From NCBI GenBank assembly GCA_964453435.1, contig CAYVQZ010000003.1:24690-88689 (forward strand): a DNA stretch of 64,000 nt. Direction: 5' to 3'. The notes under the pieces were generated by a model. The model saw only the letters and a list, made by a program, of their open reading frames with translations. It was not told where the DNA came from and did not search any database. Each line of letters starts with the position of its first letter. Position 1 is the stretch's first letter. Below are positions 41,057-63,638 of the stretch, piece by piece. The translations under genes were made by a program, and so were the position numbers. The DNA is from an uncultured bacterium. GTDB lineage: Bacteria > Abyssobacteria > SURF-5.

Positions 41057-41102
41057 TTTGTTTGCTCGGTTTGTGAATCCTTTCAGATACTTGTTTCGGC
41101 TA

Positions 41103-44456: not shown

Positions 44457-44471
44457 ATCAACTCCTGAGTT

Positions 44472-48132: not shown

Positions 48133-49425
48133 ATGAAGGCCGCATTGCGAGACGAAAACACCGCCTGTGATTGCGTTGCGGATTTCCTGTCGGCTGTGAA
48201 AATGCTTTCGAAGAAGACATACGACCTGGTTCTCACCGAGCTGAGCCTTCCGGACAGGGCCGGGCAAGAACTTGTCAAGTTGATAGCCGAGAAAAGCCCT
48301 TCCACTCAGATTCTTGTTGTCACATCTTCCGGCGATTCCCGTAAAGTCAGCGAATGCATGGAAATAGGGGCCTTCAATTATCTGCGCAAACCCTTCAAGC
48401 CCGGTCAGCTTCGGTTTCTGGCCAAGACGGCCTTCGACACGCAGCCGCCGAAAAGCGAAAACCTGTTTCTCGAGGGAAGGGAGGCCTTCAGCCAAACAGA
48501 CAACCTGGTTGGGAGAAGCCGGGCCATGCAGAAGGTATACGGACAGATACGCCTTGCGGCGAGCACCGATATTGATGTCCTCCTCACCGGGGAAAGCGGT
48601 ACGGGCAAAGAACTTGTGGCCCGCTCCATTCACCGCGAGAGCAAGCGGTGTGAGGGACCATTCATCGCGGTGAACACGGGCGCCATCGAGTCCAACCTGA
48701 TTTCCAGCGAACTGTTCGGACATGTGAGAGGCGCGTTCACCGGCGCCAGGAACACCCGGAAGGGAATGTTCGAGATGGCGCATGGCGGCACCCTGTTTCT
48801 CGATGAACTCAGCACAATGGACGAACAGACCCAGATAAGCCTTCTTCGCGTATTGGATAACAAGGTGATCACTCGCGTCGGCGGCTCCAAACCAATAAAG
48901 GTGGATGTGCGGATAATAGCCGCCTCAAATGCAATTCTGGAACAAGAGGTTGAATCCGCCCGTTTTCGGGAGGATGTGTATCATCGCCTGAACGTATTCA
49001 CGGTCCACATGCCGCCTCTGCGCAAGCGCACATCCGACATCAAGATTCTTGCCGCCGTCTTCGTCGACCAGTTTTCCCGCGAATTCAATAAGAATATCCG
49101 GGGCATTTCAGAAGAGGCGCTCGCGCTTCTGGAAAATTACGCGTGGCCCGGCAATGTGCGAGAATTGAAAAACTCGATTCAACGGGCTGTGTTGTTGGCT
49201 GAGAGCGATATGATCATTCCGTCCGTGCTGCCGGACCGGTTGCACAGGAAACGTGATGTCTCAACAGGGGTTGCGCTGAAAGTCGGGATGACATTGGAAG
49301 AGGCGGAGCGCGCTCTGATTGCGGCAACGCTTTCGCACGTGAACGGGAACAAGAAGAAGGCTTCGGAGATTTTGGGGATAAGCCGCAAGTGCATGTATAA
49401 CAAGATTAGCAAGTACGCCCTTTGA
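48133..49425 (+). CDS. Sigma-54-dependent transcriptional activator (NtrC/Fis family) with atypical receiver domain
   Basis: The AAA+ core has GESGTGKELVARSIH, GAFTGA and TLFLDE. The C-terminal Fis-type HTH has ASEILGISRKCMYNKI. The coordinate is the first canonical start, but the in-frame upstream codons (48064-48132) encode the receiver beta-1 strand ILIVDAD (see findings). Confidence 0.9.
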   Translation: MKAALRDENTACDCVADFLSAVKMLSKKTYDLVLTELSLPDRAGQELVKLIAEKSPSTQILVVTSSGDSRKVSECMEIGAFNYLRKPFKPGQLRFLAKTAFDTQPPKSENLFLEGREAFSQTDNLVGRSRAMQKVYGQIRLAASTDIDVLLTGESGTGKELVARSIHRESKRCEGPFIAVNTGAIESNLISSELFGHVRGAFTGARNTRKGMFEMAHGGTLFLDELSTMDEQTQISLLRVLDNKVITRVGGSKPIKVDVRIIAASNAILEQEVESARFREDVYHRLNVFTVHMPPLRKRTSDIKILAAVFVDQFSREFNKNIRGISEEALALLENYAWPGNVRELKNSIQRAVLLAESDMIIPSVLPDRLHRKRDVSTGVALKVGMTLEEAERALIAATLSHVNGNKKKASEILGISRKCMYNKISKYAL

Positions 49426-49704: not shown

Positions 49705-49720
49705 TGGCGCCATCCGTGCA
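49705..49720 (+). promoter_or_regulatory. Candidate sigma-54 (-24/-12) promoter
   Basis: TGGCGC-CATCC-GTGCA matches consensus TGGCAC-N5-TTGCW with correct GG/GC spacing. It lies ~98 nt upstream of the ATG at 49818 and directly downstream of the sigma-54 activator gene. Confidence 0.65.
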
Positions 49721-50280: not shown

Positions 50281-50967
50281 ATGACAGAAAACGGGCTAAT
50301 CAAGGAACTCCACGCAAACGTGGTCCTCGGCCGGATAGACCGGAATGAAGATTTGTATGAGGAATTAGCCGGACGCCCCGGCGTAACCGAGTTGACCGCC
50401 CAGTGTGTGGAAAAAGGCGTGCCCACGAAACGGATTCTGGACGAGGGCCTGATCAGCGCGATGGATGAAGTCGGCGCGAAGTATGAATCGGGAGAATATT
50501 ACCTGCCGGACTTGATCGCATCGGCCGACGCCATGATAGCCGGCATGGAGATTCTCAAGCCTCTGTTACTGGAGGCTCAAATCCAATCGCGCGGCAAAGT
50601 CATCCTGGCCACCGTGGAAGGCGATGAACATGATATTGGGAAAAATCTTGTGGGCATTATGCTTCGAGCCGCCGGTTTCGAAGTAATCGATTTGGGAACG
50701 CGAGTTCCGGCGGGAGACATTGTGGAAGCGGTGGAAGAACATAAACCGAACGTGCTCGGATTGAGCGCGCTTTTGACATCCACCATGCCGCGCATGAAAG
50801 AGGTCATCGAAGCGTTGGAACGAAACAATCTCCGGAACGGCATGCGGGTGATGGTGGGCGGAGCTCCCGTTTCAAAGGAGTACGCGGATTCCATCGGAGC
50901 AGATGCATATGGAGAGGATGCGTTTGAGGCAGTAGAGCGGGCCAATGAATTGGTGGTTGTATCATGA
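50281..50967 (+). CDS. Corrinoid (B12)-binding protein, methyltransferase-cognate type
   Basis: An N-terminal helical cap is followed by a Rossmann B12 domain with the DxHxxG motif (GDEHDIGKNLV), SxL (LGLSALLTS) and GG (MVGGAPV). Confidence 0.9.
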   Translation: MTENGLIKELHANVVLGRIDRNEDLYEELAGRPGVTELTAQCVEKGVPTKRILDEGLISAMDEVGAKYESGEYYLPDLIASADAMIAGMEILKPLLLEAQIQSRGKVILATVEGDEHDIGKNLVGIMLRAAGFEVIDLGTRVPAGDIVEAVEEHKPNVLGLSALLTSTMPRMKEVIEALERNNLRNGMRVMVGGAPVSKEYADSIGADAYGEDAFEAVERANELVVVS

Positions 50968-51599
50968 TACGAACAGATGCCGACAGTTCAGGACTTGTGG
51001 TTATCGATTCGTTTGACATTCGGACCACGCCGAAATCGGTGCTCAAGAGGATGGGCAGGGGGGTCAGCGAGACCAAATGGGCAGGCGCCGTTTCAAGAGT
51101 ATTTGAACAATATTGGCCGCGAATTCAACCGCGCGGCGTGTTTCGCGTTACCATCTGCCATCCTGACGGAGATTCAATCGGCATCGGCAAAAACCTGGGC
51201 TTCAGAAGCGGATTTTTGCAGGAACGCCTCCCCTATCCGCGACTTTCGGCGATTTTTCTGGTAACCATCGGGGCTGAGTTGGAAGAAGGAATACGCGAGG
51301 AGATGCGAAAGGGCAGGAATCGCAGAGCATACATCTTGGACTGTCTCGGCTCCAACGCGGCCGAAGCGACCGCCGCGGCCATTCATCGAGCGGTCGAGGA
51401 ACAGCTTGACGTTCCAATGAGCCGATACAGCCCCGGCTATAACGATTGGGACATTGCCGAGCAACGAATTCTCTTTGATTTTCTTGGGCGGGACACGGCG
51501 AAGGAAGTGGGAGTTCGCTTGACGCACGATTTCATGATGACGCCGCAGAAGTCAGTCAGCGGCATTATCCTGCCCAGAATGGAACAAAACCCGAATTGA
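50964..51599 (+). CDS. MetH-type (vitamin B12-dependent methionine synthase) activation-domain-like protein, stand-alone
   Basis: The C-terminal block RYSPGYNDWDIAEQRILFDFLG...GVRLTHDFMMTPQKSVSGIILP matches the reactivation-domain signature as I recall it. The start overlaps the upstream stop (ATGA). Confidence 0.7.
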   Translation: MIRTDADSSGLVVIDSFDIRTTPKSVLKRMGRGVSETKWAGAVSRVFEQYWPRIQPRGVFRVTICHPDGDSIGIGKNLGFRSGFLQERLPYPRLSAIFLVTIGAELEEGIREEMRKGRNRRAYILDCLGSNAAEATAAAIHRAVEEQLDVPMSRYSPGYNDWDIAEQRILFDFLGRDTAKEVGVRLTHDFMMTPQKSVSGIILPRMEQNPN

Positions 51600-51687: not shown

Positions 51688-53184
51688 TTGGAACGAGCGA
51701 TTTCGAGACAGAGGTTTTTGGTAGCTGCGAGAAAAGGAATTGCAGGAGGAGCCTACAAGCCTCTGAGCGATTCCGACCTCGATAAGGTCTGCGACACCAG
51801 TTTCAGGCTCTTGGAGGAGGTCGGCGCTCTGGTGCACGAGCCCACGGCGCTCGACCTTTTCGAAAAGGCCGGGGCCAGGGTGGACCGCGCGTCCGCTGTC
51901 GTCAAGATTCCGCGCCAACTGGTGAAATCTTCCCTCAAAAGTTTACCCTCGAAGGTGACACTGTTCGGGCGAGATGAATCACACGACCTTCACCTCGAGG
52001 ATGCGCGCGTGTATGTGGGAACCGGCGGGACCGCGCTCAACGTTCTCGATTTCGGAGCCCATGAAGTTCGGCCGGCGCAACTGAGCGACCTCCGGTCCAT
52101 CTGCAAATTGGTTGACGCGCTCGACCACGTCCATTTCATCGTGATTCCCACCTATCCCAACGAGTTGGACGTCGCTTGCGTTGACGTCAATCGTTTTTTC
52201 ACGGCGTTGAGTCAAAGCTCCAAACACGTAATGGGCGGTATTTATACGCTTGAGGGTCTGCGCCAGGTCATACGCCTCGCGGAAATAATAGCCGGCGGTC
52301 CGGACGCGTTGCGAGAAAGACCGTTCATATCGGTGATCACATGTGTTATGAGTCCGCTGCGGCTTGACAGCCATTACGCGCATTTGATGATCGAGACAGC
52401 CAAGGCGGGAATACCCGTCTGTGTGCCCGCCGAGCCGCTGGCGGGCGCAACCTCGCCGATTACTCTGGCCGGCACTCTGGCGATGCAAGTTGCCGACAGC
52501 TTGGTCGGCGTCGTGTTGACACAGATAGTCAATCCGGGCACCCCGGTGATTTTCGGGTCGGTTGCCACAACGACCGACCTGCGGGACATGAAATACCTTG
52601 GGGCCTCCATCGAGAGCGGACTCTTAAACGCGGCGGGAGCCCAGGTGGCCCAGCATCTTCGGATTCCCTATTATGCGACCGCCGGAATGAGCGACGCGAA
52701 GACCATTGACGCTCAGTGCGGATACGAGGCCGCTCTCACGTTGCTGCTCACTGCGCTCTCGGGAGCCAACTACATCCACGACGCGGCCGGACTCATGGAG
52801 TTTGCGAACACGGTGAGCCTCGAGAAATACGTTATCGACGACGACATCATCGGCATGGTGATGCGGGCCGTCGAGGGGATTCGAGTGAACAAAGACACGC
52901 TGGCCTTCGACGCCATTCGAAGGGTTGGACCCGGCGGCAATTTCCTCGCGGAGCGGCACACGGCGAAACACATGAGGAAAGAGCACTACATGCCGACAGT
53001 CGCCGATCGCTCCCGGCGCGACCAGTGGCTCGCCGCAGGCACGAAAGACGCATACGCGCGAGCACACGAGAGGGCGATGCTGTTGCTCGAGTCCCACACG
53101 CCCGCGGCTCTGTCGAACGATGCCCTCTCGCGAATACGGGCAGAGTTTTCGGAAGTCCTTGCGGACGGCAACGAGGAGAGCTGA
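51688..53184 (+). CDS. MttB-family (trimethylamine methyltransferase superfamily) corrinoid methyltransferase, non-pyrrolysine, paralogue 1
   Basis: TTG start, 498 aa. The N-terminal block is LSDSDLDKVCDTSFRLLEEVGALVHEPTALDLFEKAGARVD. It also has GTGGTALNVLD and the C-terminal GPGGNFLAERHT. There is no in-frame stop. Confidence 0.85.
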   Translation: MERAISRQRFLVAARKGIAGGAYKPLSDSDLDKVCDTSFRLLEEVGALVHEPTALDLFEKAGARVDRASAVVKIPRQLVKSSLKSLPSKVTLFGRDESHDLHLEDARVYVGTGGTALNVLDFGAHEVRPAQLSDLRSICKLVDALDHVHFIVIPTYPNELDVACVDVNRFFTALSQSSKHVMGGIYTLEGLRQVIRLAEIIAGGPDALRERPFISVITCVMSPLRLDSHYAHLMIETAKAGIPVCVPAEPLAGATSPITLAGTLAMQVADSLVGVVLTQIVNPGTPVIFGSVATTTDLRDMKYLGASIESGLLNAAGAQVAQHLRIPYYATAGMSDAKTIDAQCGYEAALTLLLTALSGANYIHDAAGLMEFANTVSLEKYVIDDDIIGMVMRAVEGIRVNKDTLAFDAIRRVGPGGNFLAERHTAKHMRKEHYMPTVADRSRRDQWLAAGTKDAYARAHERAMLLLESHTPAALSNDALSRIRAEFSEVLADGNEES

Positions 53185-53994
53185 GTGATTGTTATAGGAG
53201 AGAAAATCAACGCCACGCGAAAATCCGTGAAGCACGCGTTGAAAGAGAAGAATCTGGATTTCATACGACAGCTCTGCGGCGAACAGGATTCGGCCGGAGC
53301 GGACTATATCGATGTGAACGTCGGCGCCGGCGAAGACGACGTCGACTTCGAGACAAGAACAATGGTGTGGCTTGTGAAGGCGCTCGAAGAGGTAACAGAA
53401 AAACCTCTTTGCATCGACAGCGCAAATCCGGCCGTGATCGAGGCTGGCGTGAAGGCCTGCACGCGGGCAAAGCCCATGATTAATTCAGTGAACGGAACAG
53501 ATTCGAGAATGGACGCCATCTTCCCGCTTGCCTCCGAGTGCGGATGCCCCGTCATTGCGCTCGCCATGAACGAGGAGGGAATACCGGCCACACCCGAAGA
53601 ACGCGTCTCCATTTGCAGGCAAATTCTGGAACGCGCCAGTTCGTATGAGATTCCGAACGAAAACCTCTTATTCGACCCGCTCGTGCTGCCACTGTCCACG
53701 GGAGAACAACAAGGAACGATAACTCTCGACACGATTTCCCTTCTGAAAAGCTCACTGGACGGAGTGCGAACCGTGGTGGGCCTGAGCAACATATCGTTCG
53801 GGCTGCCTCACCGCTCGCTCATCAACGGAGCGTTCCTCGTATTGGCGATCGGGCGTGGGGCCGACGCGGCGATTTTCGACCCCACGAACGCGAAACTGCT
53901 CTCGCAACTGCGGGCCGCAGAGGTGGTAGCGGGCAGTGACCGCAGATGCCGGCGCTACACCCGCGCTCACAACACCGGCCAATTGACTGATTAA
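53185..53994 (+). CDS. Pterin-binding methyltransferase (methylcorrinoid:tetrahydrofolate methyltransferase, MtgA/AcsE/MetH pterin-domain-like)
   Basis: The GTG start immediately follows the upstream TGA. Motifs are IGEKINATRKSV, DYIDVNVG, CIDSANP, INSVNG and GLSNISFGLP. Confidence 0.85.
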   Translation: MIVIGEKINATRKSVKHALKEKNLDFIRQLCGEQDSAGADYIDVNVGAGEDDVDFETRTMVWLVKALEEVTEKPLCIDSANPAVIEAGVKACTRAKPMINSVNGTDSRMDAIFPLASECGCPVIALAMNEEGIPATPEERVSICRQILERASSYEIPNENLLFDPLVLPLSTGEQQGTITLDTISLLKSSLDGVRTVVGLSNISFGLPHRSLINGAFLVLAIGRGADAAIFDPTNAKLLSQLRAAEVVAGSDRRCRRYTRAHNTGQLTD

Positions 53995-54002
53995 GGAGAA
54001 CC

Positions 54003-55535
54003 ATGAGAGGTGTTATGTCCCGAAAAATGAAGACAGAGACGATTCAAAGGCAGGGAGTTCTCGTTGACCCGTACAGACGATTGACGAGTCGACAAATCAG
54101 GGCCATACATGAGGCTTCCCTCGATATCCTTTGGGAAGTCGGAATAACGTGCAACAACCCGAGGATTATCGAGTTGTTGGCCGCGAACGGAGCGGCGATT
54201 GACAGAAAGAACGGCGAAACGGTGGCGAAGCTTCCCGCAAAGCTCGTCGCGCAAGCCGTGGAAAGTTCTCCCCGCGCCGTCGTGCTCGGCGCGCGCAACC
54301 CCGATAATCGTTTGATTCTTGATGCGCGGGAACCACGAGTGAGATTTGGCACAGGCTCGGAGACGAATATATGGCTGAGCCTGGAATGGGAGAACAACAC
54401 TATCCCCGGCTTCCGCGAGCATCGGGGAACTCTCGAGCGACTCTGCAAGTCCGCCCGTTTGTGCGACCACTTGGAGTCGGTCGATTTTTTCATCCGGAAC
54501 GTGAACATTCAAGACGAGAACATAGACGATGATAACAAGGATGTCAACGTCTTCTTTGGCAGCCTCAGCAATATAACCAAGCATGTAATGGCAGGTATTA
54601 ATAATGTGGAAAAACTGGCGGACGTGGTTCGAATGGCCGAACTCATAACAGGCGGCGCCGATGCTTTTCGGGCCAACCCGATTATTTCTTTCATCACCTG
54701 CGTCATCAAGAGTCCGTTGCAGTTGGTCGATGACACGGCGGACAAGTTGGTGGCGATAGCCGAGCGGGGCATACCGCTTGTTATCTCTTCGTCTCCCCAG
54801 GGCGGCGCAACGGGGCCGATTGACGAGGGGGACATGGTCGCGATGATTAACGCCGAAATCCTTGCCGGCGTCCTCCTTGCCCAGCTTGTCCGGCCGGCGG
54901 CGCCGGTGCTGTATGGCGCTGTGCCCGCGCGAGCGCGAATGGACACCCTGCACAACATGTATGGAGCGCCCGAGACGAACCAGTACAACATTGACTGCGT
55001 TCAGATGGCGCGATTCTACGATATTCCGTGCTATTCGACCGCCGGGGTGAGCGACGCCGCGATACCGGGCATTCAAACGACGATGGAGAAGATGTTGTCC
55101 CATCTGAGCGTAACGATGAGCGGACCCCAGTACCTGCACTATGCCTTCGGCCTGCTCGACAAAACCAACATCTTCTGTCCGGCGCAGGCAGTGCTCGACG
55201 ACGCGCACATCGCAGCGGTCAAGCATTTCTGCCGCAAGCCGGAAATAACCAAAACAAGCCTGAACAAAGGCGTCGCTCAGCTCAAACAGGTGATGGATTC
55301 CTCTCACAAACTTTTCGCGAGATACGCCCGGAAGGGAATGCGGTCAGGCGCTATCTCCCGACCCTACCCGTTCGAAGCCGCCGCGCTCGAGGACACGACA
55401 CTGTTCCAGGCCGATTCCGTCGCGCGCGAACTGATGGAAAAGACCGTGGAACCGATTCCCGACGATGTCGTGGAGAGAATCTTCGCGGCGCTCCCGGGAA
55501 TCGTGTCCCAACTGAAGCCGGCGCTGAGAGAATGA
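54003..55535 (+). CDS. MttB-family corrinoid methyltransferase, non-pyrrolysine, paralogue 2
   Basis: AAGGAG RBS, 510 aa. It is collinear with paralogue 1 (IRAIHEASLDILWEVGITCNNPRIIELLAANGAAID; STAGVSDA) but only ~30% identical by eye. Confidence 0.85.
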   Translation: MRGVMSRKMKTETIQRQGVLVDPYRRLTSRQIRAIHEASLDILWEVGITCNNPRIIELLAANGAAIDRKNGETVAKLPAKLVAQAVESSPRAVVLGARNPDNRLILDAREPRVRFGTGSETNIWLSLEWENNTIPGFREHRGTLERLCKSARLCDHLESVDFFIRNVNIQDENIDDDNKDVNVFFGSLSNITKHVMAGINNVEKLADVVRMAELITGGADAFRANPIISFITCVIKSPLQLVDDTADKLVAIAERGIPLVISSSPQGGATGPIDEGDMVAMINAEILAGVLLAQLVRPAAPVLYGAVPARARMDTLHNMYGAPETNQYNIDCVQMARFYDIPCYSTAGVSDAAIPGIQTTMEKMLSHLSVTMSGPQYLHYAFGLLDKTNIFCPAQAVLDDAHIAAVKHFCRKPEITKTSLNKGVAQLKQVMDSSHKLFARYARKGMRSGAISRPYPFEAAALEDTTLFQADSVARELMEKTVEPIPDDVVERIFAALPGIVSQLKPALRE

Positions 55536-56803
55536 GTGGTGATTCCATGGATTCCGGTTCCGCATACACCGAAGCCGTCAACACGGGTCAGTACCAGAAA
55601 GACCAGGGCCTGGTTAAAAAGTACGACAACGTCCGCATCTACTGGGAAGATGAAATAACGCGACATTTTGTTCGCCCGCACATCGAGCGGATGACGATGG
55701 AAAAAGAGCAGCGCCTCGAGCGGTTGCGGATTCTCGATTTGGGATGCGGCAGCGGTGACGGGTTCGAGTTGCTCAAAGGCGTTCGCCGGAAAGACAACAA
55801 TCTCACGACACAGGAGATCTACGCCATCAACGGCGAAGACCTCGGCCTCTATCTCGGGTTGGACAACAATGCGGCCCTTATTGAACAGGCAAAACAGGTC
55901 CACGGGAGTAATCGCAAGCTCGACTTCGTTCAGGGCGACTTCTCAGAACTCACGAAAACCGTGAAGGATTACGGACCCTTCGACCTTTTCTTCAGCTCGT
56001 ACGGAACGATGTCTCATTGCACTGATGAACAGTTTGTCGAGCTAATGGTACAGATCGCCGAACTGTGCGGAGACTATGGGCTGGTCGTGTGCGATTGGCT
56101 CGGGCGCTACGTGTACGCGTGGCAGAACCTGTGGGACAGCGACCTTTCGCAAAGCCAATTCATGGATTACCGTATTTCCTATATCTACCCGGATGACATG
56201 AGGGACAAACTGCAAATAGAGAGTTTCCCGCTCAAGCTCATGAGCCCCGATGAGGTCCACCGGCTTATCGAGAAGGCAAACGAGAAAGCGGAAAAGCAAT
56301 TCGACCTGCTCAGGCTTGCGGACCGCTCCATCTTTGTCAGTCGCCATATGGACACCGGCGACTATAACAGTAGCTGCCAGCCGATACGGCGCCGCGTTAA
56401 TTCGCTGCATGAAGACTTTCTCCGCACGCCGCTCGAACAATTGATTATCGACTATTATCCAAAGCCCGGATTCGCCGAGGTCAACTCCTACCTCGAACGG
56501 CTTCAAATAAGCTGGAACACGCTGGTGAAATACACGATGTTTCTTTTGGACAATTACGACCGCGACACCGAGACGTTTCGAGAGGACAAACCCCTTTCCG
56601 GCGATTACCCCCGGGTGCTCGCGAAAAATATGCAGGAAATGAAAAAGGTAATCCAGGGCACCGGATGGATACAGACCGGCGACGTGAGGGCGAACATCAT
56701 CGAGCCGCAGCTTGGCTATGCTCTCAGGCAGCTCGAGATCGAGTTGCAGGAAGGACTGGGTGTGGGCCATGGCCTGGTTGCGATACTGGAAGTCCACAAG
56801 TAA
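55532..56803 (+). CDS. Large class I SAM-dependent methyltransferase-like protein (423 aa), function unknown
   Basis: The ATG at 55532 overlaps the MttB-2 stop (ATGA). Motif I is LRILDLGCGSGDGFELL, post-I is LGLDNN, motif II is DFVQGDF, and motif III is FDLFFSSYGTMSHC. The ~200 aa C-terminal region is not recognised. The track ORF start at 55028 lies inside MttB-2 and is rejected. Confidence 0.75.
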   Translation: MSGDSMDSGSAYTEAVNTGQYQKDQGLVKKYDNVRIYWEDEITRHFVRPHIERMTMEKEQRLERLRILDLGCGSGDGFELLKGVRRKDNNLTTQEIYAINGEDLGLYLGLDNNAALIEQAKQVHGSNRKLDFVQGDFSELTKTVKDYGPFDLFFSSYGTMSHCTDEQFVELMVQIAELCGDYGLVVCDWLGRYVYAWQNLWDSDLSQSQFMDYRISYIYPDDMRDKLQIESFPLKLMSPDEVHRLIEKANEKAEKQFDLLRLADRSIFVSRHMDTGDYNSSCQPIRRRVNSLHEDFLRTPLEQLIIDYYPKPGFAEVNSYLERLQISWNTLVKYTMFLLDNYDRDTETFREDKPLSGDYPRVLAKNMQEMKKVIQGTGWIQTGDVRANIIEPQLGYALRQLEIELQEGLGVGHGLVAILEVHK

Positions 56804-56818: not shown

Positions 56819-57985
56819 ATGATAGAACTGAAAGACGTTTCAAAGGTCTATCCTGACAATCAGCCCGCCGTAAAGAACTTCTCTCTCACCGTGGCAGACG
56901 GAGAGACCGTCGTTCTCATCGGCTCGAGCGGATGCGGGAAGACAACGACACTGAAAATGATCAACAGGCTCATCGAGCCCACCTCCGGCGAGATATATAT
57001 CAACGCAGAAAACATACTCAAGCTGAGCCCCGTTGCCCTGCGTCGCGACATCGGTTACGTCATCCAGCAGATCGGACTGTTCCCGCACATGACAATCAGA
57101 GAAAACGTCGAAATCGTGCCATCCCTTCTGGGCTGGCCGGAAGACCGCCGCCGCAGCCGCTCCCACGAGTTGATGAGCCTTGTGGGCCTGGCGCCCGACG
57201 TGTACTCCGACCGCTTCCCCCATGAGTTAAGTGGCGGACAGCAGCAACGGGTGGGGGTCGCCAGGGCGCTTGCGGCCGACCCGCCGACTCTCCTGATGGA
57301 CGAGCCGTTCGGCGCGCTGGACCCGATCACCCGGCGCGACATCCAGGAGGAATTTCAAACTCTGAAACGGGAAATCAAAAAGACAATCGTCTTTGTCACT
57401 CACGACATTATTGAAGCGGTGACTCTCGGAGACCGAATCGCGGTCATGAATAAGGGGAAATTGATTCAGTTGGGGTCCGCACACGAAATACTGTCTCATC
57501 CCGCCAATCCGATGGTCGAAAAAATCATCGGCCACCAGCGGTTTCAGCTCACCTTGAGCTCGGAGAACATCGAGACAGCGGCGGACACCGACATCGCGAC
57601 GGTCTCGGCAAAATTCCTTGAAAAACCGGTGGAAGACGCGCGTAATCTTATGAGAAAACGCCGGACCGGGATATTGCCCGTAGTTGACGAACAAGAACGG
57701 GTAGTCGGTGTGTTGACGGATGAACGCTTGTCGCGCGCGAATGAGAACGAAACCCTCAACGAGGTGATTCAGCCGCCTCCGCACACAATCGATAGCGACA
57801 CCAGCCTCCTTACGGCGCTCAATCTGATGATTGAAAAAGACGTGCAGATGTCCGTGCTGGTAAACAGGGATGGAAAGTTCGGGGGAATTCTGTCACGAAA
57901 GAGCCTGCTCGGAACAATCGCAAACTTATTCGATGCCGAGGGCTCGGACAGCGCCAAAACGAAGAGAGTTACGGGGAAACCATGA
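56819..57985 (+). CDS. Osmoprotectant (betaine/choline/carnitine-type) ABC transporter ATP-binding protein with C-terminal tandem CBS domains
   Basis: Walker A is GSSGCGKTT, signature is LSGGQQQRV, and Walker B is LLMDEPFGALD. The ~130 aa C-terminal CBS-like region has ILPVVDEQERVVGVLTDE and VLVNRDGKFGGILSR. Confidence 0.9.
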   Translation: MIELKDVSKVYPDNQPAVKNFSLTVADGETVVLIGSSGCGKTTTLKMINRLIEPTSGEIYINAENILKLSPVALRRDIGYVIQQIGLFPHMTIRENVEIVPSLLGWPEDRRRSRSHELMSLVGLAPDVYSDRFPHELSGGQQQRVGVARALAADPPTLLMDEPFGALDPITRRDIQEEFQTLKREIKKTIVFVTHDIIEAVTLGDRIAVMNKGKLIQLGSAHEILSHPANPMVEKIIGHQRFQLTLSSENIETAADTDIATVSAKFLEKPVEDARNLMRKRRTGILPVVDEQERVVGVLTDERLSRANENETLNEVIQPPPHTIDSDTSLLTALNLMIEKDVQMSVLVNRDGKFGGILSRKSLLGTIANLFDAEGSDSAKTKRVTGKP

Positions 57986-59523
57986 CCGAGTATTTCGAGT
58001 TTTTTCTATCCCGTTCGCCGGAAATCGCCTGGCTCACGGTCGAGCACATACGGATAACCCTGGTCTCGGTGGCGCTGGCGGTGCTGCTCGGCGTGCCGAC
58101 CGGAATCATCCTCGTGAGAATCCGGCGGCTGGCCACGCCTGTCATTGGGGCGACGAGCGTAATCCAGACGATTCCGAGCCTCGCCCTTCTCGGTTTCATG
58201 ATTCCCTTGCTCGGAATCGGCGTCAAACCGGCCATCGTGGCGCTGTTTCTTTACGCTCTGCTGCCAATAGTCAGAAACACATATACGGGGGTCGACCAGG
58301 TGGACCCGGCGCTGATAGAGGCCGGCATCGGGATGGGAATGACGAACCGTCAAATGCTGCGGAGGGTGCAAATTCCGCTTTCATTGCCCGTGATAATGGC
58401 GGGAGTCAGAACCTCGACAGTCATCAATGTGGGCGTAGCCACGCTGTGCGCGCTCATCGGCGCCGGCGGGCTTGGCGAGCTTATCTTCCGCGGAATCGCG
58501 ATGGTGAACAGCCAGATGATTATTGCGGGAGCCCTGCCGGCCGCCCTCTTGGCGCTCGTTTTCGACGGAGTACTCGGACTCATCGAGAAAGGGCTCATGG
58601 CGAGGAAACGCTTTTCGCCGAAGCTCCTGGCGGGTGTCGGTTTCTCGAGCTTGCTCTTCCTCGCGGCTCTTATCCCGTCCGAGTACGCGAAAAAAGATGC
58701 GCGGAAAATCACAATCGGGTCCAAGGAATTCACCGAACAAATTATCCTGGGTGAGATCATGGCCCAGTTGATTGAATCAAACACCGACGTGTCCGTGACC
58801 AGAAAGTTCGGACTGGGCGGCACTATGGTCTGTTTCAACGCCTTGACAAATGGCGACATCGACGTGTATCCCGAATACACCGGCACCGGCTTGACGGCGA
58901 TCCTGGCCCGGCAGGCAATCTCGGACCCGAAAGAGGTGTTTCGTATCGTAAGCGAGGAGTTCGAGCGCGAATACAACCTGGTCTGGCTGAGTCCGTTCGG
59001 TTTTAACAACACGTATGCGCTCGCCATGAGAGAACAACACGCCGAAAAGCTCGGAATCGAGAAAATAAGCGATTTGGCCGGGCATGGGCAAAGACTGCGG
59101 CCGGGCTTCACCCAGGAATTCCTCGAACGGCCCGACGGGTATCCGGGCCTCAGGCGGCATTACGGTCTGGCCTTCGCCCGCGAACCCAAGGGAATGGACC
59201 CCGGAATCATGTATATCGCGCTCAGGGAAAGAGATGTCGATCTTATTTGTGCATTCGCCACGGACGGGCGCATTCCGGCTTTCAACTTGCGGGTTCTCGA
59301 GGATGACAAGCACTATTTTCCTCCGTATTATGCAGCCCCCCTCGTGCGCGGGGAGACGCTTGCTCGCATCCCCGAACTGAGCGGCGTTTTGGGCAAGCTG
59401 GCCGGCCTCATCGACGACGCAAAGATGGCCGAACTGAATTATGAGGTGGACGAGCAGGGACGGTCGCCCGAGGCGGTCGCTTCCGCCTTTCTCCAAGAGG
59501 CGGGGTTGACCACAAACGGATGA
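57982..59523 (+). CDS. Osmoprotectant ABC transporter, fused permease and substrate-binding protein (OpuB/C/F-type)
   Basis: The N-terminal ~210 aa permease has IQTIPSLALLGFMIPLLGIG and EAGIGMGMT. The C-terminal OpuAC-like binding domain has ITIGSKEFTEQIILGEI and DIDVYPEYTGTGL. The start overlaps the ATPase stop (ATGA). Confidence 0.9.
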   Translation: MTEYFEFFLSRSPEIAWLTVEHIRITLVSVALAVLLGVPTGIILVRIRRLATPVIGATSVIQTIPSLALLGFMIPLLGIGVKPAIVALFLYALLPIVRNTYTGVDQVDPALIEAGIGMGMTNRQMLRRVQIPLSLPVIMAGVRTSTVINVGVATLCALIGAGGLGELIFRGIAMVNSQMIIAGALPAALLALVFDGVLGLIEKGLMARKRFSPKLLAGVGFSSLLFLAALIPSEYAKKDARKITIGSKEFTEQIILGEIMAQLIESNTDVSVTRKFGLGGTMVCFNALTNGDIDVYPEYTGTGLTAILARQAISDPKEVFRIVSEEFEREYNLVWLSPFGFNNTYALAMREQHAEKLGIEKISDLAGHGQRLRPGFTQEFLERPDGYPGLRRHYGLAFAREPKGMDPGIMYIALRERDVDLICAFATDGRIPAFNLRVLEDDKHYFPPYYAAPLVRGETLARIPELSGVLGKLAGLIDDAKMAELNYEVDEQGRSPEAVASAFLQEAGLTTNG

Positions 59524-59554: not shown

Positions 59555-61051
59555 TTGCAGATGAGCGGCATCATAGCGATATATGGTCCCGACGCGGAGA
59601 ACGAGAAGGAACTCGCCGAAGAAATGCTTTCGAGAATAAGGCATCGCGGGCCGAGTTTCGCCAATATCTTTTCTGACACCGGCGTAATCCTGGGTTTTGT
59701 GGGAAAAGGAACGCCTTCGGAATCCTCCGGTTTGCCGTATCGGGACAAGAACGGCTCTCAGGCGGTTACATGTGACGCCGAGATATACAATGCCGACACG
59801 CTTCTGTCGGCCTCGCAAACGGATGCGTCCTTCGAAGCCAACAGCGCACGGGCAATCGTGAATGCGTATAAGCAGGACGGCGAAACCTTTGTGAGGAATC
59901 TCGACGGCCAGTTCAGTTTCGTCCTTTTCGACAACGGCGACCTTGTCGCGGCGCGGGACCCTCTCGGTGTCATTCCCCTTTATACTGCTGAACGAGACGG
60001 ACTGAAATTATTCTCATCGGAACTGAAATGCCTGAGCGGGCTGGCATCGAACATACAAGAATTTCCCCCGGGAAGGCTATTCCATTCCCGGTCGGGTTTC
60101 CGCCGATATTGCAGCCTGGAGCCGGAAATCTCGGAGAATCAATCCGTTGATTCGCTGTGCGCACAATTGAGGGAGTTGCTCGAGGTTGCGGTTCGAAAGC
60201 GGCTGGAGTGCTGCGACAAGAAAAAAGGAGTGTTCTTGAGCGGAGGGGTGGACAGCAGCGTTATCGCGGCGGTGGTGAGCAAGTTCCTGCCGGGAGTCGA
60301 TTCCTTCACCGTCGGCATGGAGAACGGCGAAGATGTTCCGAATGCCCGACTCGTGGCAAAGCATTTGGGGACGAATTCCCATGTACATATTTTTGAGATC
60401 GCTGAGGTTCTCGAAGTCCTTCCGAAGGTACTATATCACCTCGAATCGTTCGACGCGCCGCTGGTGCGCAGCGCGACCGCAAACTACATAGCGAGTGGTA
60501 TGGCGTCACAGGTTGTCGACACGATATTAATCGGGGAAGGCGGAGATGAGAACTTCGGAGGGTACCATCATGTGAAAAGGTTCAAATCGCCCGAAGAACA
60601 GCAGAAAGAGTTCATAAACCTTATGTTGGCTCTTCACAACATGGGCTTCATGAGAACCGACCGAATGAACTGGGCGCATTCCTTAAATGTGAGAGCACCG
60701 TTTTTCGACTCGGCGGTCGTGAACCTGGCCATGAGCATTCATCCCAAGCTGAAACTGTACGGTGATGAACAAATCGAGAAATGGATTTTGCGGAAAGCGT
60801 TCGAAGACTATCTTCCCGAGGAGGTCGTCTGGCGTCCCAAGAAGCAGTTTGCGCGCGGCTCCGGCTCCGATGACCTTCTCACGCGACATGCGGAAAGCGA
60901 AATCAGCGATTCGGACTTCGACAATGGCAAAAGACGTTACCCCGACATCGAGTTCCGCTGGAAAGAGGAATGGTGGTACTTCACGATTTTCAGGGAGCGC
61001 TTCGGCGACGACCCCTCAACGCTGTCCACGGTGGGCCGCTGGTACGAGTAG
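59555..61051 (+). CDS. Asparagine-synthetase-B-like protein lacking the N-terminal Cys nucleophile (Ser2)
   Basis: A strong RBS (AAAGGAG) lies 6 nt before the ATG. The N-terminus is MSGIIAIYG instead of MCG. The PP-loop VFLSGGVDSSVIAAV is intact. Length is 498 aa. Confidence 0.85.
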   Translation: MQMSGIIAIYGPDAENEKELAEEMLSRIRHRGPSFANIFSDTGVILGFVGKGTPSESSGLPYRDKNGSQAVTCDAEIYNADTLLSASQTDASFEANSARAIVNAYKQDGETFVRNLDGQFSFVLFDNGDLVAARDPLGVIPLYTAERDGLKLFSSELKCLSGLASNIQEFPPGRLFHSRSGFRRYCSLEPEISENQSVDSLCAQLRELLEVAVRKRLECCDKKKGVFLSGGVDSSVIAAVVSKFLPGVDSFTVGMENGEDVPNARLVAKHLGTNSHVHIFEIAEVLEVLPKVLYHLESFDAPLVRSATANYIASGMASQVVDTILIGEGGDENFGGYHHVKRFKSPEEQQKEFINLMLALHNMGFMRTDRMNWAHSLNVRAPFFDSAVVNLAMSIHPKLKLYGDEQIEKWILRKAFEDYLPEEVVWRPKKQFARGSGSDDLLTRHAESEISDSDFDNGKRRYPDIEFRWKEEWWYFTIFRERFGDDPSTLSTVGRWYE

Positions 61052-61204: not shown

Positions 61205-62686
61205 GTGTGTGGAATAGCAGGAGTATGGGGCGAAGAGAATCCTTATCTTGTCCGGAAAATGTTGTCGAAGCTCACGCACCGGGGCCCGGACGATGAGGGA
61301 ATACATTGCGACCACAACATCACGCTCGGGCACACCCGGTTGTCGATTATCGATGTTCAGAGGGGACGCCAGCCCTTGTTCAACGAAGACAAGAGTATCG
61401 TTCTGGTCTGCAACGGCGAGATATACAATCACAATGCCCTCCGCAACGAATTGGCGCACCACACGTTTCAAACGCGCAGCGACTCCGAAGTGATACTCCA
61501 CCTGTACGAGGACCTGGGTCCCGCGTGCGTTGAAAAACTGGACGGCATGTTCAGTTTCGTGCTCTGCGACGGCGCCGACATGATGGTTGCGCGCGATCCT
61601 CTCGGCATCAAGCCGCTCTACTACAGCGAGCATCTCGGCCGGTGGTATTTCGCTTCGGAAATCAAGGCTGTGATGGGGCTTGTCGAGGATATTGCGGAAT
61701 TCCCGAACGGTCACTATTACTATTCTCCTTCCGGTTTCCACAGGTACTATTCATTGCCGCGCCACCCACCGAAAATCGCCGATGTCGATGAGGCCGTTGT
61801 CGGCGTGAGAAAACTGTTTGAGAAGGCGGTCGTCAAGCGACTCATGGCGGATGTTCCGCTGGGAGTCTTGCTGAGCGGCGGATTAGACAGCAGCCTGGTG
61901 AGCGCCGTCGCCTCGAAACACAAGAAGAATATGAATTCTTTCAGCGTAGGCGTTGAAGGAAGCGCCGACATCGAGGCCGCCCGGCTCATGGCCGACTTTC
62001 TGGATGTCAACCATCATGAATATGTCTACACGATAGACGAGATGCTCGATATCCTGCCGACCGTCATCTATTATCTCGAATCGTACGACGCGCCGCTGGT
62101 GCGAAGCGCGATACCCACGTATTTCGTGTCGAGACTCGCGCGTCGGTATGTGAAGGTCATTCTCAGCGGCGAGGGCTCGGACGAACTGTTCAGCGGATAC
62201 CACTATTACAAGAAGTGTCCGGAAGATTTGCTTCATGACGAACTCGTGCGGAGCGTTGACGGTTTGCACAATATCAATCTGCAGCGCCTGGACCGCCTGT
62301 CCATGGCTCACTCGCTAGAAGCGCGCGTGCCGTTTCTCGACATCGACTTCGTGGAATATGCGTTGCAGCTCAGCGCTTCCTTGAAGATCGACCGGCAAAC
62401 CGGTACCGAGAAATGGATTCTGAGAAAAGCCTTCGAGGGGGTGCTTCCCGATGAGATCGTGTGGAGAGTGAAGACACAATTCGCGAAGGGCTGCGGCTCC
62501 GCCGGGCTGATTGAAAATCATGTGGAAAACCTTATTTCTGACAGGGAATACCGGGAAACGCTCGAGATGGACCCGCATTGCCGCGCGCGTTCCAAGGAAG
62601 AGTTGTTCTACTACCGAATGTTCAAGGAACACTTCGGCAACGAAAGTGTGGTAAAATCGGTCGGCCGTTGGGAAGAGATTTATTAG
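61205..62686 (+). CDS. Asparagine synthetase B-like glutamine amidotransferase (canonical Cys nucleophile)
   Basis: GTG start followed by CGIAGVWG. The PP-loop is VLLSGGLDSSLVSAV. It is a collinear paralogue of 59555..61051. Confidence 0.85.
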   Translation: MCGIAGVWGEENPYLVRKMLSKLTHRGPDDEGIHCDHNITLGHTRLSIIDVQRGRQPLFNEDKSIVLVCNGEIYNHNALRNELAHHTFQTRSDSEVILHLYEDLGPACVEKLDGMFSFVLCDGADMMVARDPLGIKPLYYSEHLGRWYFASEIKAVMGLVEDIAEFPNGHYYYSPSGFHRYYSLPRHPPKIADVDEAVVGVRKLFEKAVVKRLMADVPLGVLLSGGLDSSLVSAVASKHKKNMNSFSVGVEGSADIEAARLMADFLDVNHHEYVYTIDEMLDILPTVIYYLESYDAPLVRSAIPTYFVSRLARRYVKVILSGEGSDELFSGYHYYKKCPEDLLHDELVRSVDGLHNINLQRLDRLSMAHSLEARVPFLDIDFVEYALQLSASLKIDRQTGTEKWILRKAFEGVLPDEIVWRVKTQFAKGCGSAGLIENHVENLISDREYRETLEMDPHCRARSKEELFYYRMFKEHFGNESVVKSVGRWEEIY

Positions 62687-62738: not shown

Positions 62739-63638
62739 GTGATTGAATCTCACATTATGGCTTACATCGTCATTGTATCCGCTGTCGGCGTCATCGTGAT
62801 TTGGTGGCTGCGCCGAACCATAACCATGGTCGAGGAGCAGCGGCGGAAGCGACTGCAAACGCTGAATCGCTTCGACGCAGCCGTGCACACGGAATCTCCG
62901 CATGAGAATCCCCTCATCCAGGCGCGCAAGCTGGCGCTCGAAAGCCTCAGCAGCCGCTTCAGTATTCTCAGGCGTTTGCTCATTCCGGCGGTCTTCCTGC
63001 TCTGGCTCGTCGCGCTCGCTTACCCCTTCCTCGGGAACGTGCCTGCAAACGTCGTGTCGCTCATGGTGGCGGCCGCCACGGTGATCGTCGGTATCGCCGC
63101 GAAACCCTATGTCGAGAATCTTATCTCCGGAATCGTCATATCGTTTTCGCGCCTTGTGCGCATCGGCGACACCCTGCTGATTGATGGCAATTATGGAACC
63201 GTCGAAGACATCACCATCACGCACACGCTCGTGAAGATATGGGACTGGAGACGGTACATCATTCCGAACTCGCGCATGCTCGAAAAAGAATTCATCAATT
63301 ACTCCATCGTCGACACATACCAGTGGGCGTACGTCGAGTTCTGGGTGGATCATGACGCGGACATCGAGCGGGTCCGGGAGATTGCCGTACGGGCCGCGTC
63401 CTCGAGCGACCATTTCGCAAATTATGAGGCTCCCCGGTTCTGGCTCATGGAGATGGGCAAAGAGGGAATAAAGTGCTGGGTGGCGGCATGGGCGCAATCG
63501 CCCGCAGACGCCTGGCTGCTCAAAAACGAGATTCGCACCGAACTGGTTCGAGAATTGGCACAGGCCGGAATTCGGACCCATACCTATCGGATAGATGGCT
63601 TGGAGGCTTTGAAGGACACTATGGAACCGCGGAAGTGA
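62739..63638 (+). CDS. Mechanosensitive ion channel, small MscS family
   Basis: GIAAKPYVENLISGIVISFSRLVRIGDTLLIDGNYGTVEDITITHTLVKIWDWRRYIIPNS. Length is 299 aa with N-terminal TM segments. Confidence 0.9.
   Translation: MIESHIMAYIVIVSAVGVIVIWWLRRTITMVEEQRRKRLQTLNRFDAAVHTESPHENPLIQARKLALESLSSRFSILRRLLIPAVFLLWLVALAYPFLGNVPANVVSLMVAAATVIVGIAAKPYVENLISGIVISFSRLVRIGDTLLIDGNYGTVEDITITHTLVKIWDWRRYIIPNSRMLEKEFINYSIVDTYQWAYVEFWVDHDADIERVREIAVRAASSSDHFANYEAPRFWLMEMGKEGIKCWVAAWAQSPADAWLLKNEIRTELVRELAQAGIRTHTYRIDGLEALKDTMEPRK

What the first reader, a model, noticed from the sequence alone, without database searches (positions are those of the whole stretch)
55532..56803. Unassigned 423-aa SAM-methyltransferase-like gene translationally coupled to MttB-2
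Seen in sequence: the ATG overlaps the MttB-2 stop (gaATGAgt). The class I motifs are intact (LDLGCGSGDG, DFVQGDF, FSSYGTMSHC). The protein is ~150-200 aa longer than minimal class I methyltransferases and has a C-terminal region I cannot assign. Inference: a SAM-dependent methyltransferase inside a corrinoid demethylation operon is unexpected. It could methylate a product or substrate, for example interconverting betaine-series amines. It could act with the MetH-type reactivation protein, or serve as a SAM-binding sensor. None of these is supported directly.
Basis: inference. Interest (0 to 1): 0.5.

Follow-up and report, generated by a model that had tools for sequence, protein, structure and literature searches.

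The report
Unnamed methyltransferase locked to MttB pair
This gene encodes an uncharacterised SAM-dependent methyltransferase that, across more than ten bacterial phyla, always sits beside the same two unusual corrinoid methyltransferases and is often next to or fused with asparagine synthetase, pointing to an undescribed pathway for a methylated (betaine-type) salt-stress solute.

Summary
ORF 55532-56803 is real, has intact class I SAM-methyltransferase motifs, and abuts MttB-2. The true start may be ATG 55547, which gives an 11-nt gap instead of the ATGA overlap.

It belongs to no curated family and has no solved relative. Only about 200 residues match the generic methyltransferase fold.

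Linkage to MttB is very strong:
- In 80 genome loci from more than 10 phyla, the gene always follows the same divergent MttB-2 type, sometimes with a corrinoid gene between them, and an MttB-1 type lies alongside.
- Searching from MttB-2 in metagenomes recovered the methyltransferase in 63 of 64 loci that had room for it.

Both MttB types replace the Arg conserved in all characterised non-pyrrolysine members with Tyr.

Frequent neighbours are an asparagine-synthetase paralogue lacking its catalytic Cys, OpuA betaine transporters, and sometimes MetK/AhcY.

A divergent clade is fused to canonical AsnB. It sits next to OpuA with no MttB genes nearby.

Best reading (about 0.4): a small-molecule N-methyltransferase that makes an asparagine-derived betaine-type osmolyte, whose methyl groups the MttB/corrinoid system handles. 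The substrate is unproven. I found no paper describing the family. I rate it a new variant of a known kind, of moderately high interest.

The parts
55532..56803 (+). Target gene: a 423-aa class I SAM-dependent methyltransferase of an unnamed family (418 aa if the start is ATG 55547). It has an N-terminal extension (about residues 1-60), a Rossmann core (about 62-265) and a helical insert (about 266-414).
54003..55535 (+). MttB-2 type: a divergent non-pyrrolysine MTTB-family protein and the obligate upstream partner of the methyltransferase. The MtgB Arg312 position is an invariant Tyr and the His348 position is Tyr.
51688..53184 (+). MttB-1 type: a non-pyrrolysine MTTB-family protein. The MtgB Arg312 position is Tyr and the His348 position is Asp.
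53185..53994 (+). Pterin-binding methyltetrahydrofolate:corrinoid methyltransferase.
   Evidence: Pterin_bind; NF005719, 302.6 bits against a cut-off of 259.
50281..50967 (+). Corrinoid (B12-binding) protein.
50964..51599 (+). Small protein with a partial MetH activation-domain match. It is a candidate corrinoid reactivation factor.
   Evidence: PF02965, 41.4 bits, residues 154-204 only; it recurs in 26 genome loci.
56819..57985 (+). OpuA/ProV-type ABC ATPase with CBS domains.
   Evidence: TIGR01186, 379.6 bits against a cut-off of 326.6.
57982..59523 (+). ABC permease fused to an OpuAC-type betaine-binding domain.
59561..61051 (+). Asparagine-synthetase paralogue with Ser in place of the catalytic Cys2 (MSGI...). 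It is presumably glutaminase-dead and is the commonest gene directly downstream of the methyltransferase in related loci.
   Evidence: (416.7 bits, below the 499 cut-off).
61205..62686 (+). Canonical glutamine-hydrolysing asparagine synthetase B with Cys2 present.
   Evidence: (603.1 bits, above the 499 cut-off).
48133..49425 (+). Sigma-54-dependent response regulator upstream of the cluster. It is a possible regulator, which I did not test.

Best explanation
The gene encodes the catalytic SAM-dependent methyltransferase of an undescribed pathway for a methylated, betaine-type compatible solute.

Proposed mechanism (inferred):
1. The adjacent asparagine-synthetase-type enzymes supply asparagine or a close Asp/Asn derivative.
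2. The methyltransferase N-methylates it with SAM, probably up to the trimethylammonium (betaine) stage.
3. The OpuA-type ABC system takes up or recaptures the product.
4. In anaerobes, the two dedicated non-pyrrolysine MttB enzymes, with the corrinoid protein and the pterin methyltransferase, remove its N-methyl groups to methyl-tetrahydrofolate. This would serve turnover, salvage or catabolism.

Shown here: the class I methyltransferase fold and motifs; the obligate synteny and co-variation with MttB-2 and MttB-1; the AsnB adjacency and fusion; and the transporter adjacency.

Inferred only: the acceptor molecule, the number of methyl groups added, and the direction in which the MttB enzymes run.
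For: 2. Linkage to MttB. In all 80 genome loci (Desulfobacterota, Nitrospirota, Planctomycetota, Spirochaetota, Actinomycetota, Lentisphaerota, Kiritimatiellia and others) the gene follows an MttB-2 type, with or without a corrinoid gene between, and an MttB-1 type lies alongside. The median gap is 17 bp.
3. Reciprocal search. Starting from MttB-2 in metagenomes, 63 of 64 loci with room for it carry the methyltransferase.
4. Co-variation. The pairwise-identity matrices of the methyltransferase and MttB-2 correlate at r = 0.96.
5. Link to Asn synthesis. An AsnB-like gene is the next gene downstream in 28 of 68 genome loci and 28 of 44 metagenome loci. Natural AsnB(N-terminal)-methyltransferase(C-terminal) fusions exist: P0151, P0158, P0271, P0272, P0273. 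Their AsnB part has Cys2 (shown in the P0151 sequence) and is 52-59% identical to ordinary stand-alone AsnB-length proteins.
6. The role does not depend on corrinoid chemistry. The three fusion loci examined have an OpuA-type ATPase plus a permease-OpuAC gene adjacent, MarC or MFS nearby in two of them, and no MttB or corrinoid gene within 10 kb.
7. The extra domain belongs to the enzyme itself. 41 residues stay invariant between the two clades, including many in the 266-414 insert.
8. Osmotic and high-flux SAM context. Neighbours include OpuA, MscS and trehalose genes. MetK, with or without AhcY, follows in several loci. One clade has a Usp-methyltransferase fusion.
9. The MttB partners are new subtypes. 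The Arg312 conserved in all characterised non-pyrrolysine members (PMC13080624) is Tyr in 49/49 MttB-1 and 54/54 MttB-2 orthologues.
Against: - No substrate was tested, and no known natural product matches. A literature search for asparagine betaine and related names found no bacterial osmolyte of that kind.
- In part of the loci the accessory genes are ProA plus a GCS2-family ligase, not AsnB. This does not fit an Asn-only scheme.
- Co-transcription, possibly translational coupling, of a synthase with enzymes that would undo its product looks like a futile cycle.
- MttB-2 is never found without the methyltransferase, which is unusual for a purely catabolic enzyme.
- The loci sampled are the 80 best matches in each search, so 'always linked' applies to the core clade (at least about 45% identity) only.
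Confidence: 0.4

Rival explanations
1. Hybrid, energy-saving biosynthesis. All the genes work in one direction. Methyl-tetrahydrofolate loads the corrinoid protein through the pterin methyltransferase. MttB-1 and MttB-2 run in the methylating direction and add two N-methyl groups. The SAM enzyme performs only the step that needs a strong donor, for example quaternisation. In MttB-less lineages the SAM enzyme does all steps.
For: - It explains why synthase and MttB genes are co-transcribed and tightly packed.
- It explains why MttB-2 is never seen without the methyltransferase.
- The count fits: two MttBs plus one SAM enzyme for three methyl groups.
- Both MttBs lack the acid-binding Arg of the demethylases.
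- Many hosts are anaerobes from saline sediments and soda lakes, where SAM cost matters (record titles).
- The pterin methyltransferase passes the cut-off of the AcsE-type family, which natively moves methyl from methyl-THF to a corrinoid.
Against: - Every characterised MttB-family enzyme transfers methyl from substrate to corrinoid (PMC13080624). There is no precedent for the reverse in vivo.
- I could not settle the thermodynamics.
- Many Planctomycetota-type loci have no corrinoid or pterin methyltransferase gene in the cluster.
Confidence: 0.15
2. It is a non-orthologous glycine betaine synthase, or a synthase for another standard betaine such as proline betaine. It would do the job of the GSMT/SDMT enzymes, and the MttB system would demethylate that betaine.
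For: - OpuA-type betaine transporters are adjacent.
- MetK/AhcY adjacency resembles known glycine betaine synthesis clusters (the comparison rests on my general knowledge).
- ProA plus a GCS2-family ligase in some loci could feed proline.
Against: - An AsnB fusion has no role in glycine or proline betaine synthesis.
- Both MttBs lack Y97, R312, H348 and F356, which bind glycine betaine in MtgB. R312 is also conserved in the proline betaine, carnitine, butyrobetaine and phosphocholine enzymes (PMC13080624).
Confidence: 0.12
3. It acts on the methyltransferase machinery itself. Either it is a SAM-dependent primer that reductively methylates the corrinoid protein, as the MetH activation domain does, or it post-translationally methylates MttB-2.
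For: - It sits directly after the corrinoid gene or MttB-2, with very tight co-variation with MttB-2 (r = 0.96).
- NCBI curates a different class I family, CpaM, as 'corrinoid protein-associated methyltransferase' (seen), so the idea has a precedent.
Against: - The family, with the same 41 invariant residues, also occurs in loci with no corrinoid or MttB gene, fused to AsnB or Usp.
- Desulfobacterota-type clusters already carry a MetH-activation-like protein.
- If it were a general reactivase, it should accompany other corrinoid systems. It accompanies only this MttB pair.
- There is no CpaM match.
Confidence: 0.08
4. It is a non-catalytic SAM/SAH-binding regulator, or an unrelated housekeeping RNA or protein methyltransferase that happens to lie here.
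For: The Pfam matches are only weak and generic.
Against: - Synteny is conserved across more than 10 phyla and is reciprocal.
- Motif I and the putative catalytic positions are invariant.
- There is no match to any curated housekeeping family.
Confidence: 0.03

Closest known systems
Glycine/sarcosine and sarcosine/dimethylglycine N-methyltransferases (GSMT/SDMT) of glycine betaine synthesis
   Same: Both are class I SAM-dependent enzymes. Both are presumed to perform stepwise N-methylation of an amino acid to an osmolyte betaine. Both are associated with betaine transporters and, in some loci, with MetK/AhcY.
MtgB/MtgC/MtgA glycine betaine:tetrahydrofolate methyl transfer system of Desulfitobacterium hafniense (and MtpB, MtcB, MtyB, MthB)
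   Same: The neighbours of the target form the same kind of kit: an MTTB-family methyltransferase, a corrinoid protein and a pterin-binding methyltransferase.
   Different: There are two MttB paralogues, and both replace the conserved acid-binding Arg312 with Tyr, as the pyrrolysine TMA enzyme does, but without pyrrolysine. None of the characterised systems includes a SAM-dependent methyltransferase.
Diphthamide pathway logic: Dph5 trimethylation to a betaine, then amidation by the PP-loop enzyme Dph6 (recalled from general knowledge, not tested)
   Same: It combines SAM-dependent N-trimethylation with an ATP-dependent, PP-loop-type amidation on one aminocarboxypropyl-like skeleton.
   Different: Dph5 is a class III methyltransferase that acts on a protein side chain. 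Here the enzyme is class I and the context points to a free small molecule.
CpaM, 'corrinoid protein-associated methyltransferase' (NCBIfam NF043040, hypothetical equivalog)
   Same: It is a class I methyltransferase family defined by adjacency to corrinoid proteins.
   Different: CpaM is a 216-position model. The target gives no hit at E <= 0.01, so the families are distinct.
MetH reactivation (activation) domain, PF02965
   Same: It uses SAM in the setting of a corrinoid methyltransferase.
   Different: It has an unrelated fold and does not match the target. A separate small PF02965-like protein is already encoded at 50964-51599.

Membership tests
Class I (Rossmann-fold) SAM-dependent methyltransferases | Glycine-rich motif I (D/E-x-G-x-G-x-G) at the end of strand 1 | tested here: met
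   ILDLGCGSGDG at residues 67-77. D69, G71 and G73 are invariant in the core clade and the fusion clade.
Class I (Rossmann-fold) SAM-dependent methyltransferases | Profile match above the curated threshold | tested here: met
   Methyltransf_25 scores 34.3 bits (cut-off 27), Methyltransf_31 31.7 (27) and Methyltransf_11 22.8 (21.2).
Class I (Rossmann-fold) SAM-dependent methyltransferases | Seven-stranded alpha/beta fold | tested here: met
Class I (Rossmann-fold) SAM-dependent methyltransferases | SAM binding and methyl transfer | not testable with these tools
   This needs a biochemical assay.
GSMT/SDMT glycine betaine synthesis methyltransferases | Specific sequence or structural similarity beyond the generic fold | tested here: not met
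GSMT/SDMT glycine betaine synthesis methyltransferases | Activity on glycine, sarcosine or dimethylglycine | not testable with these tools
   This needs an enzyme assay. The context (AsnB fusion, MttBs lacking glycine-betaine-binding residues) argues against it.
CpaM corrinoid protein-associated methyltransferase (NF043040) | HMM score at or above the 180-bit cut-off | tested here: not met
   The target gives no hit at E <= 0.01. Distant family members give only insignificant hits of 15-22 bits.
MetH activation domain (PF02965) | Profile match or the fold of the SAM-binding reactivation domain | tested here: not met
   The target gives no Pfam hit, and its fold is Rossmann-type.
Acidic quaternary-amine MttB demethylases (MtgB, MtpB, MtcB, MtyB, MthB), applied to the two neighbouring MttB genes | Conserved Arg312 (MtgB numbering) that binds the substrate's acidic group | tested here: not met
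   The position is Tyr in 49/49 MttB-1-type and 54/54 MttB-2-type orthologues. The criterion comes from PMC13080624.
Pyrrolysine trimethylamine methyltransferase MttB, applied to the two neighbouring MttB genes | In-frame UAG (pyrrolysine) at the active site | tested here: not met
   Both ORFs are uninterrupted. The pyrrolysine column of 7xcl aligns with Met in MttB-1. In MttB-2 the same column, placed by way of the MtgB alignment, is Val.
Asparagine synthase B (NF006949), applied to the two downstream genes | Score at or above 499 bits, and an N-terminal Cys nucleophile | tested here: met
   Gene 61205-62686 scores 603.1 bits and starts (M)CGIAG. The paralogue 59561-61051 fails both tests, at 416.7 bits with MSGIIA.

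The most novel reading that the evidence does not exclude
The cluster encodes a previously unknown compatible solute, an asparagine-derived betaine such as N,N,N-trimethylasparagine, built by a mixed methylation route. Two MttB-family enzymes would work biosynthetically, passing methyl groups from methyl-tetrahydrofolate through a corrinoid protein. The SAM enzyme would supply only the energetically hardest methylation. That would be the first anabolic role for the MttB superfamily, and a low-ATP way for anaerobes to make betaines.
Probability: 0.12. Interest if true: 0.85.

Novelty: new variant of a known kind. Interest (0 to 1): 0.62.

Why it matters
- **Annotation.** It would give a function and a testable substrate hypothesis to a compact but widespread protein family. 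The family has more than 1600 database members, at least 381 matching stretches in species-representative genomes, and members in over ten phyla. All are currently annotated only as 'class I SAM-dependent methyltransferase'.
- **New MttB subfamilies.** It would define two new MttB subfamilies whose substrates cannot be any of the known acidic quaternary amines.
- **Sediment chemistry.** Methylated amines in anoxic saline sediments are major precursors of trimethylamine and methane. An unrecognised betaine with its own synthesis, transport and corrinoid demethylation genes would add a new compound to that cycle.
- **Energetics.** If the MttB enzymes turn out to work in the methylating direction, it would change how the superfamily is understood and how the energy cost of osmoadaptation in anaerobes is estimated.

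Tried and rejected
- **Sequence search of solved structures with the target.** Nothing significant was found; the best hit was E = 0.1.
- **NCBIfam.** Only insignificant hits far below the cut-offs.
- **Foldseek against AFDB50.** The library was not available.
- **Sigma-54 promoter pattern.** A 2-mismatch site lies at 49705-49719, upstream of the small response-regulator gene. Window-wide matches (42) are below the shuffled expectation (56), so it is not evidence.
- **Terminator and promoter scan of 47.6-64 kb.** Counts were only about 1.4-1.6 SD above those of shuffles, and no convincing internal terminator was found.
- **Asp-binding residues of E. coli AsnB (1ct9) against the two AsnB paralogues.** The PP-loop, E348, D351 and Y357 are kept in both. 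Other positions differ in both, and my recollection of which residues bind Asp is uncertain, so I draw no conclusion.
- **Literature.** Six searches (MttB with SAM methyltransferase or asparagine synthase; osmolyte clusters; asparagine, glutamine or aspartate betaine; Desulfoferrobacter suflitae) and a check of the mlp-cluster preprint found no description of this family or cluster.
- **My greedy ORF caller.** It lost MttB-2 in a few loci, including the window, because of a GTG-extended ORF 55028-56803. The apparent 'exceptions' are artefacts, and the tblastn maps show MttB-2 there.
- **Thermodynamics.** Reasoning on whether methyl-THF can drive N-methylation could not be settled from memory, and I do not use it as evidence.
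- **Rejected ideas.** I rejected a housekeeping methyltransferase and a general corrinoid reactivase. I also rejected a docking domain for MttB, because the insert is equally conserved in the MttB-less clade.
Full report
**The observation.** ORF 55532-56803 (+) is present as described.
- Its ATG overlaps the TGA of the preceding 510-aa MTTB-family gene (54003-55535).
- The product has the quoted motifs: LDLGCGSGDG at 68-77, DFVQGDF at 131-137 and FSSYGTMSHC at 154-163.
- Pfam finds only generic class I methyltransferase domains, just above threshold, over residues about 65-180.
- NCBIfam assigns no family, and no solved structure is a sequence relative.
- A second in-frame ATG at 55547 coincides with the start of the closest homologues (418 aa). 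The start may therefore lie 11 nt after the MttB-2 stop rather than overlapping it. Either reading keeps the genes tightly packed.

**The protein.** More than 1600 homologues exist, and many are full-length at 45-52% identity in very different phyla.
- An exhaustive profile search of 1.84 billion cluster representatives gives only 361 representatives. The family is compact and sharply bounded.
- Thirty-two diverse members share 74 invariant positions along the whole length.
- The AlphaFold model is of fair quality (pLDDT 80, pTM 0.79).
- The predicted secondary structure puts a final beta-strand at 415-422, after a helical stretch of about 150 residues. I read this as an insert (about 266-414) in the Rossmann fold rather than an appended tail. 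This is an inference from the secondary structure only.
- The first 31 residues are modelled with low confidence, yet they contain invariant residues (Y12, Y21, K30-D32). This fits a segment that orders on ligand or partner binding.

**Window context.** On the + strand the order is:
1. a sigma-54 response regulator
2. a small receiver-like protein
3. a corrinoid protein
4. a partial MetH-activation-like protein
5. MttB-1
6. a methyl-THF:corrinoid methyltransferase
7. MttB-2
8. the target
9. an OpuA-type ATPase with CBS domains
10. a permease-OpuAC fusion
11. an AsnB paralogue whose catalytic Cys2 is Ser (MSGI...)
12. a canonical AsnB
13. an MscS channel

Upstream, on the other strand, lie another MscS gene, GlgE and TreS-Mak, with further alpha-glucan and trehalose genes beyond. 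The neighbourhood as a whole looks osmoadaptive.

**Linkage from the methyltransferase side.** A scan of one genome per GTDB species found at least 381 stretches encoding a relative. I mapped the best 80 loci with tblastn.
- In every locus with upstream sequence, the methyltransferase follows an MttB-2-type gene. This is direct in Planctomycetota-type clusters and after an intervening corrinoid gene in Desulfobacterota- and Nitrospirota-type clusters.
- An MttB-1-type gene is always present. In two Spirochaetota loci it lies downstream instead.
- The median gap is 17 bp, and 10 of 66 gaps are overlaps.

**Linkage from the MttB-2 side.** Starting from an MttB-2 alignment in metagenome contigs, 63 loci carry the methyltransferase and 16 end too early to tell. 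One locus (L097) has a third MttB paralogue in its place.

**Co-variation.** Pairwise-identity matrices of the methyltransferase and MttB-2 correlate at r = 0.96, against 0.83-0.84 for either with MttB-1. Shared phylogeny contributes to this, but the three genes clearly travel as a unit.

**The MttB partners are themselves unusual.** The MtgB structure and mutagenesis paper (PMC13080624) reports three things. Y97 and F356 hold the trimethylammonium group. R312 and H348 hold the carboxylate. R312 is conserved in all characterised non-pyrrolysine members, and R312L is inactive.
- In a joint alignment, the R312 position is Tyr in 49/49 MttB-1-type and 54/54 MttB-2-type proteins.
- H348 is Asp in 48/49 MttB-1-type and Tyr in 54/54 MttB-2-type proteins.
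- The pyrrolysine TMA enzyme (7xcl) also has Tyr at the R312 column, but both proteins here lack pyrrolysine. Its pyrrolysine aligns with Met in MttB-1, and the same column, placed by way of the MtgB alignment, is Val in MttB-2.
- They are therefore not glycine betaine, proline betaine, carnitine, butyrobetaine or phosphocholine enzymes in the known sense.

**The asparagine synthetase link.** An AsnB-like gene is the commonest gene directly downstream of the methyltransferase: 28 of 68 genome loci and 28 of 44 metagenome loci with room.
- In most cases it is the Cys2-less form (MSGF, MSGL or MAGF), sometimes paired with a canonical MCGI copy.
- The profile search also turned up natural fusions with AsnB at the N-terminus and the methyltransferase at the C-terminus (P0151 934 aa, P0158 901 aa, P0271 949 aa, P0272, P0273), and a Usp-methyltransferase fusion.
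- The fused AsnB part keeps Cys2 (seen in the P0151 sequence) and is 52-59% identical to ordinary stand-alone AsnB-length proteins.
- In the three fusion loci examined, an OpuA-type ATPase and a permease-OpuAC gene are adjacent. MarC or MFS follows in two of them, and no MttB or corrinoid gene lies within 10 kb.
- The methyltransferase parts of this clade are only 29-37% identical to the window protein. They still share 41 invariant residues spread over the N-terminal segment, the core and the insert.
- The enzyme's chemistry therefore does not require the corrinoid system, and the extra domain is not an MttB adaptor.

**Other recurrent neighbours.** These are OpuA genes, MarR, MetK with or without AhcY in several Desulfobacterota loci, and, alternatively to AsnB, a ProA plus GCS2-family ligase pair. 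ProA scores 530 bits against a cut-off of 289. I cannot explain the ProA/GCS2 module within an asparagine-only scheme. It may supply a glutamate-derived precursor or modify the solute's side chain.

**Interpretation.** I favour a small-molecule N-methyltransferase. It would convert asparagine, or a close Asp/Asn derivative made by the adjacent or fused AsnB enzymes, into a betaine-type solute.
- The evidence for a quaternary ammonium product is indirect. It rests on OpuAC-type binding proteins and MttB-family partners, whose characterised members all act on trimethylammonium or trimethylamine groups.
- The MttB pair, corrinoid protein and pterin methyltransferase would then strip the methyl groups to methyl-THF.
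- Weak points are the apparent futile cycle of co-expressed synthesis and demethylation, and the fact that MttB-2 never occurs without the methyltransferase.
- Both weak points are better explained by the rival in which the MttBs methylate, with methyl-THF as donor, and SAM is used for one step only. That rival has no biochemical precedent.
- A glycine betaine synthase, a corrinoid-priming or MttB-modifying enzyme, and a regulator are less likely, for the reasons given under the rivals.

**Novelty.** Six literature searches and a check of a related preprint found no description of the family, the cluster or an asparagine-type bacterial betaine. This holds within the limits of an open-access library. 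The enzyme is a new, structurally elaborated family within a known superfamily, embedded in what appears to be an undescribed pathway. I rate it a new variant of a known kind, with interest 0.62. The function remains a prediction.

Noticed in passing
window 59561-61051; many loci, e.g. L010 11349-12869 and L030 11269-12789: An asparagine-synthetase paralogue whose catalytic Cys2 is replaced by Ser or Ala (MSGF, MSGL, MAGF). It is the most frequent gene directly after the methyltransferase. It keeps the PP-loop and E348/D351/Y357 equivalents, so it probably still adenylates a carboxylate but cannot hydrolyse glutamine. Its substrate is unknown.
   Followed up: partly
window 51688-53184 and 54003-55535: Two non-pyrrolysine MttB paralogues both carry Tyr where all characterised non-pyrrolysine MttB enzymes have the essential Arg312. 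The pyrrolysine TMA enzyme has the same Tyr. They define two new MttB subfamilies with unknown, probably non-canonical, substrates.
   Followed up: yes
L005 4082-6828, L006 2850-5643, L007 3620-6239, L129, L139: A ProA (glutamate-5-semialdehyde dehydrogenase) plus GCS2-family carboxylate-amine ligase pair accompanies the MttB-MttB-methyltransferase core in Planctomycetota, Actinomycetota and some Desulfobacterota loci. In a few loci it takes the downstream position usually held by AsnB. The GCS2 protein might replace ProB by making gamma-glutamyl phosphate, but this is unexplained.
   Followed up: partly
L172 10001-15765; L168 2941-9634; the P0151 locus (no DNA available): AsnB-methyltransferase fusion genes form small operons with an OpuA-type ATPase and a permease-OpuAC gene, followed by MarC or an MFS transporter in two of the three loci. 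No MttB or corrinoid genes lie nearby.
   Followed up: yes
L006 7144-8448, and L044, L063, L066, L072, L077, L086, L087: A DUF362 plus 4Fe-4S ferredoxin protein is inserted between MttB-1 and MttB-2 in many Planctomycetota-type clusters that lack the MetH-activation-like gene. It may be an alternative electron donor for corrinoid reactivation.
   Followed up: no
window 50964-51599: A 211-aa protein matches only the last part of the MetH activation domain (profile positions 199-248 of 273). Its start overlaps the stop of the corrinoid gene. It recurs at the head of Desulfobacterota-type clusters.
   Followed up: partly
window 31967-47700 (- strand) and 62739-63638: A block of alpha-glucan and trehalose genes (TreS-Mak fusion 41103-44456, GlgE 44472-46529, GH57/DUF3536 34817-37321, amylase-family genes) and two MscS channel genes flank the cluster. 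This fits an osmoadaptation island.
   Followed up: partly
window 3803-6058 (-), 9452-11692 (+), 14226-16625 (+): Three paralogous proteins of about 750-800 aa carry a C-terminal sulfatase/phosphodiesterase-family domain after an N-terminal region of about 310-370 residues. They are interspersed with GT1/GT2/GT4 glycosyltransferases. This looks like a cell-envelope locus unrelated to the finding.
   Followed up: no
L097 2840-4306: This is the only exception in the reciprocal search. A third MttB paralogue (32% identical to MttB-2) sits where the methyltransferase normally lies, followed by an AsnB-like gene. The contig ends soon after.
   Followed up: partly
window 49705-49719: TGGCGCCATCCGTGC resembles a sigma-54 -24/-12 element (2 mismatches). 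It lies about 100 bp upstream of the receiver-like gene at 49818, downstream of the sigma-54 activator gene. Window-wide, such matches are no more frequent than in shuffles.
   Followed up: partly
window 55028-56803, 53991-55307 (-), 56042-56797 (-): These are long alternative or antisense ORFs overlapping MttB-2 and the target: a GTG-extended 591-aa frame and antisense frames of 438 and 251 aa. None has independent support, and the antisense frame over MttB-2 recurs (in 17 loci) only as a shadow of the conserved gene. They can mislead automatic gene calling.
   Followed up: partly
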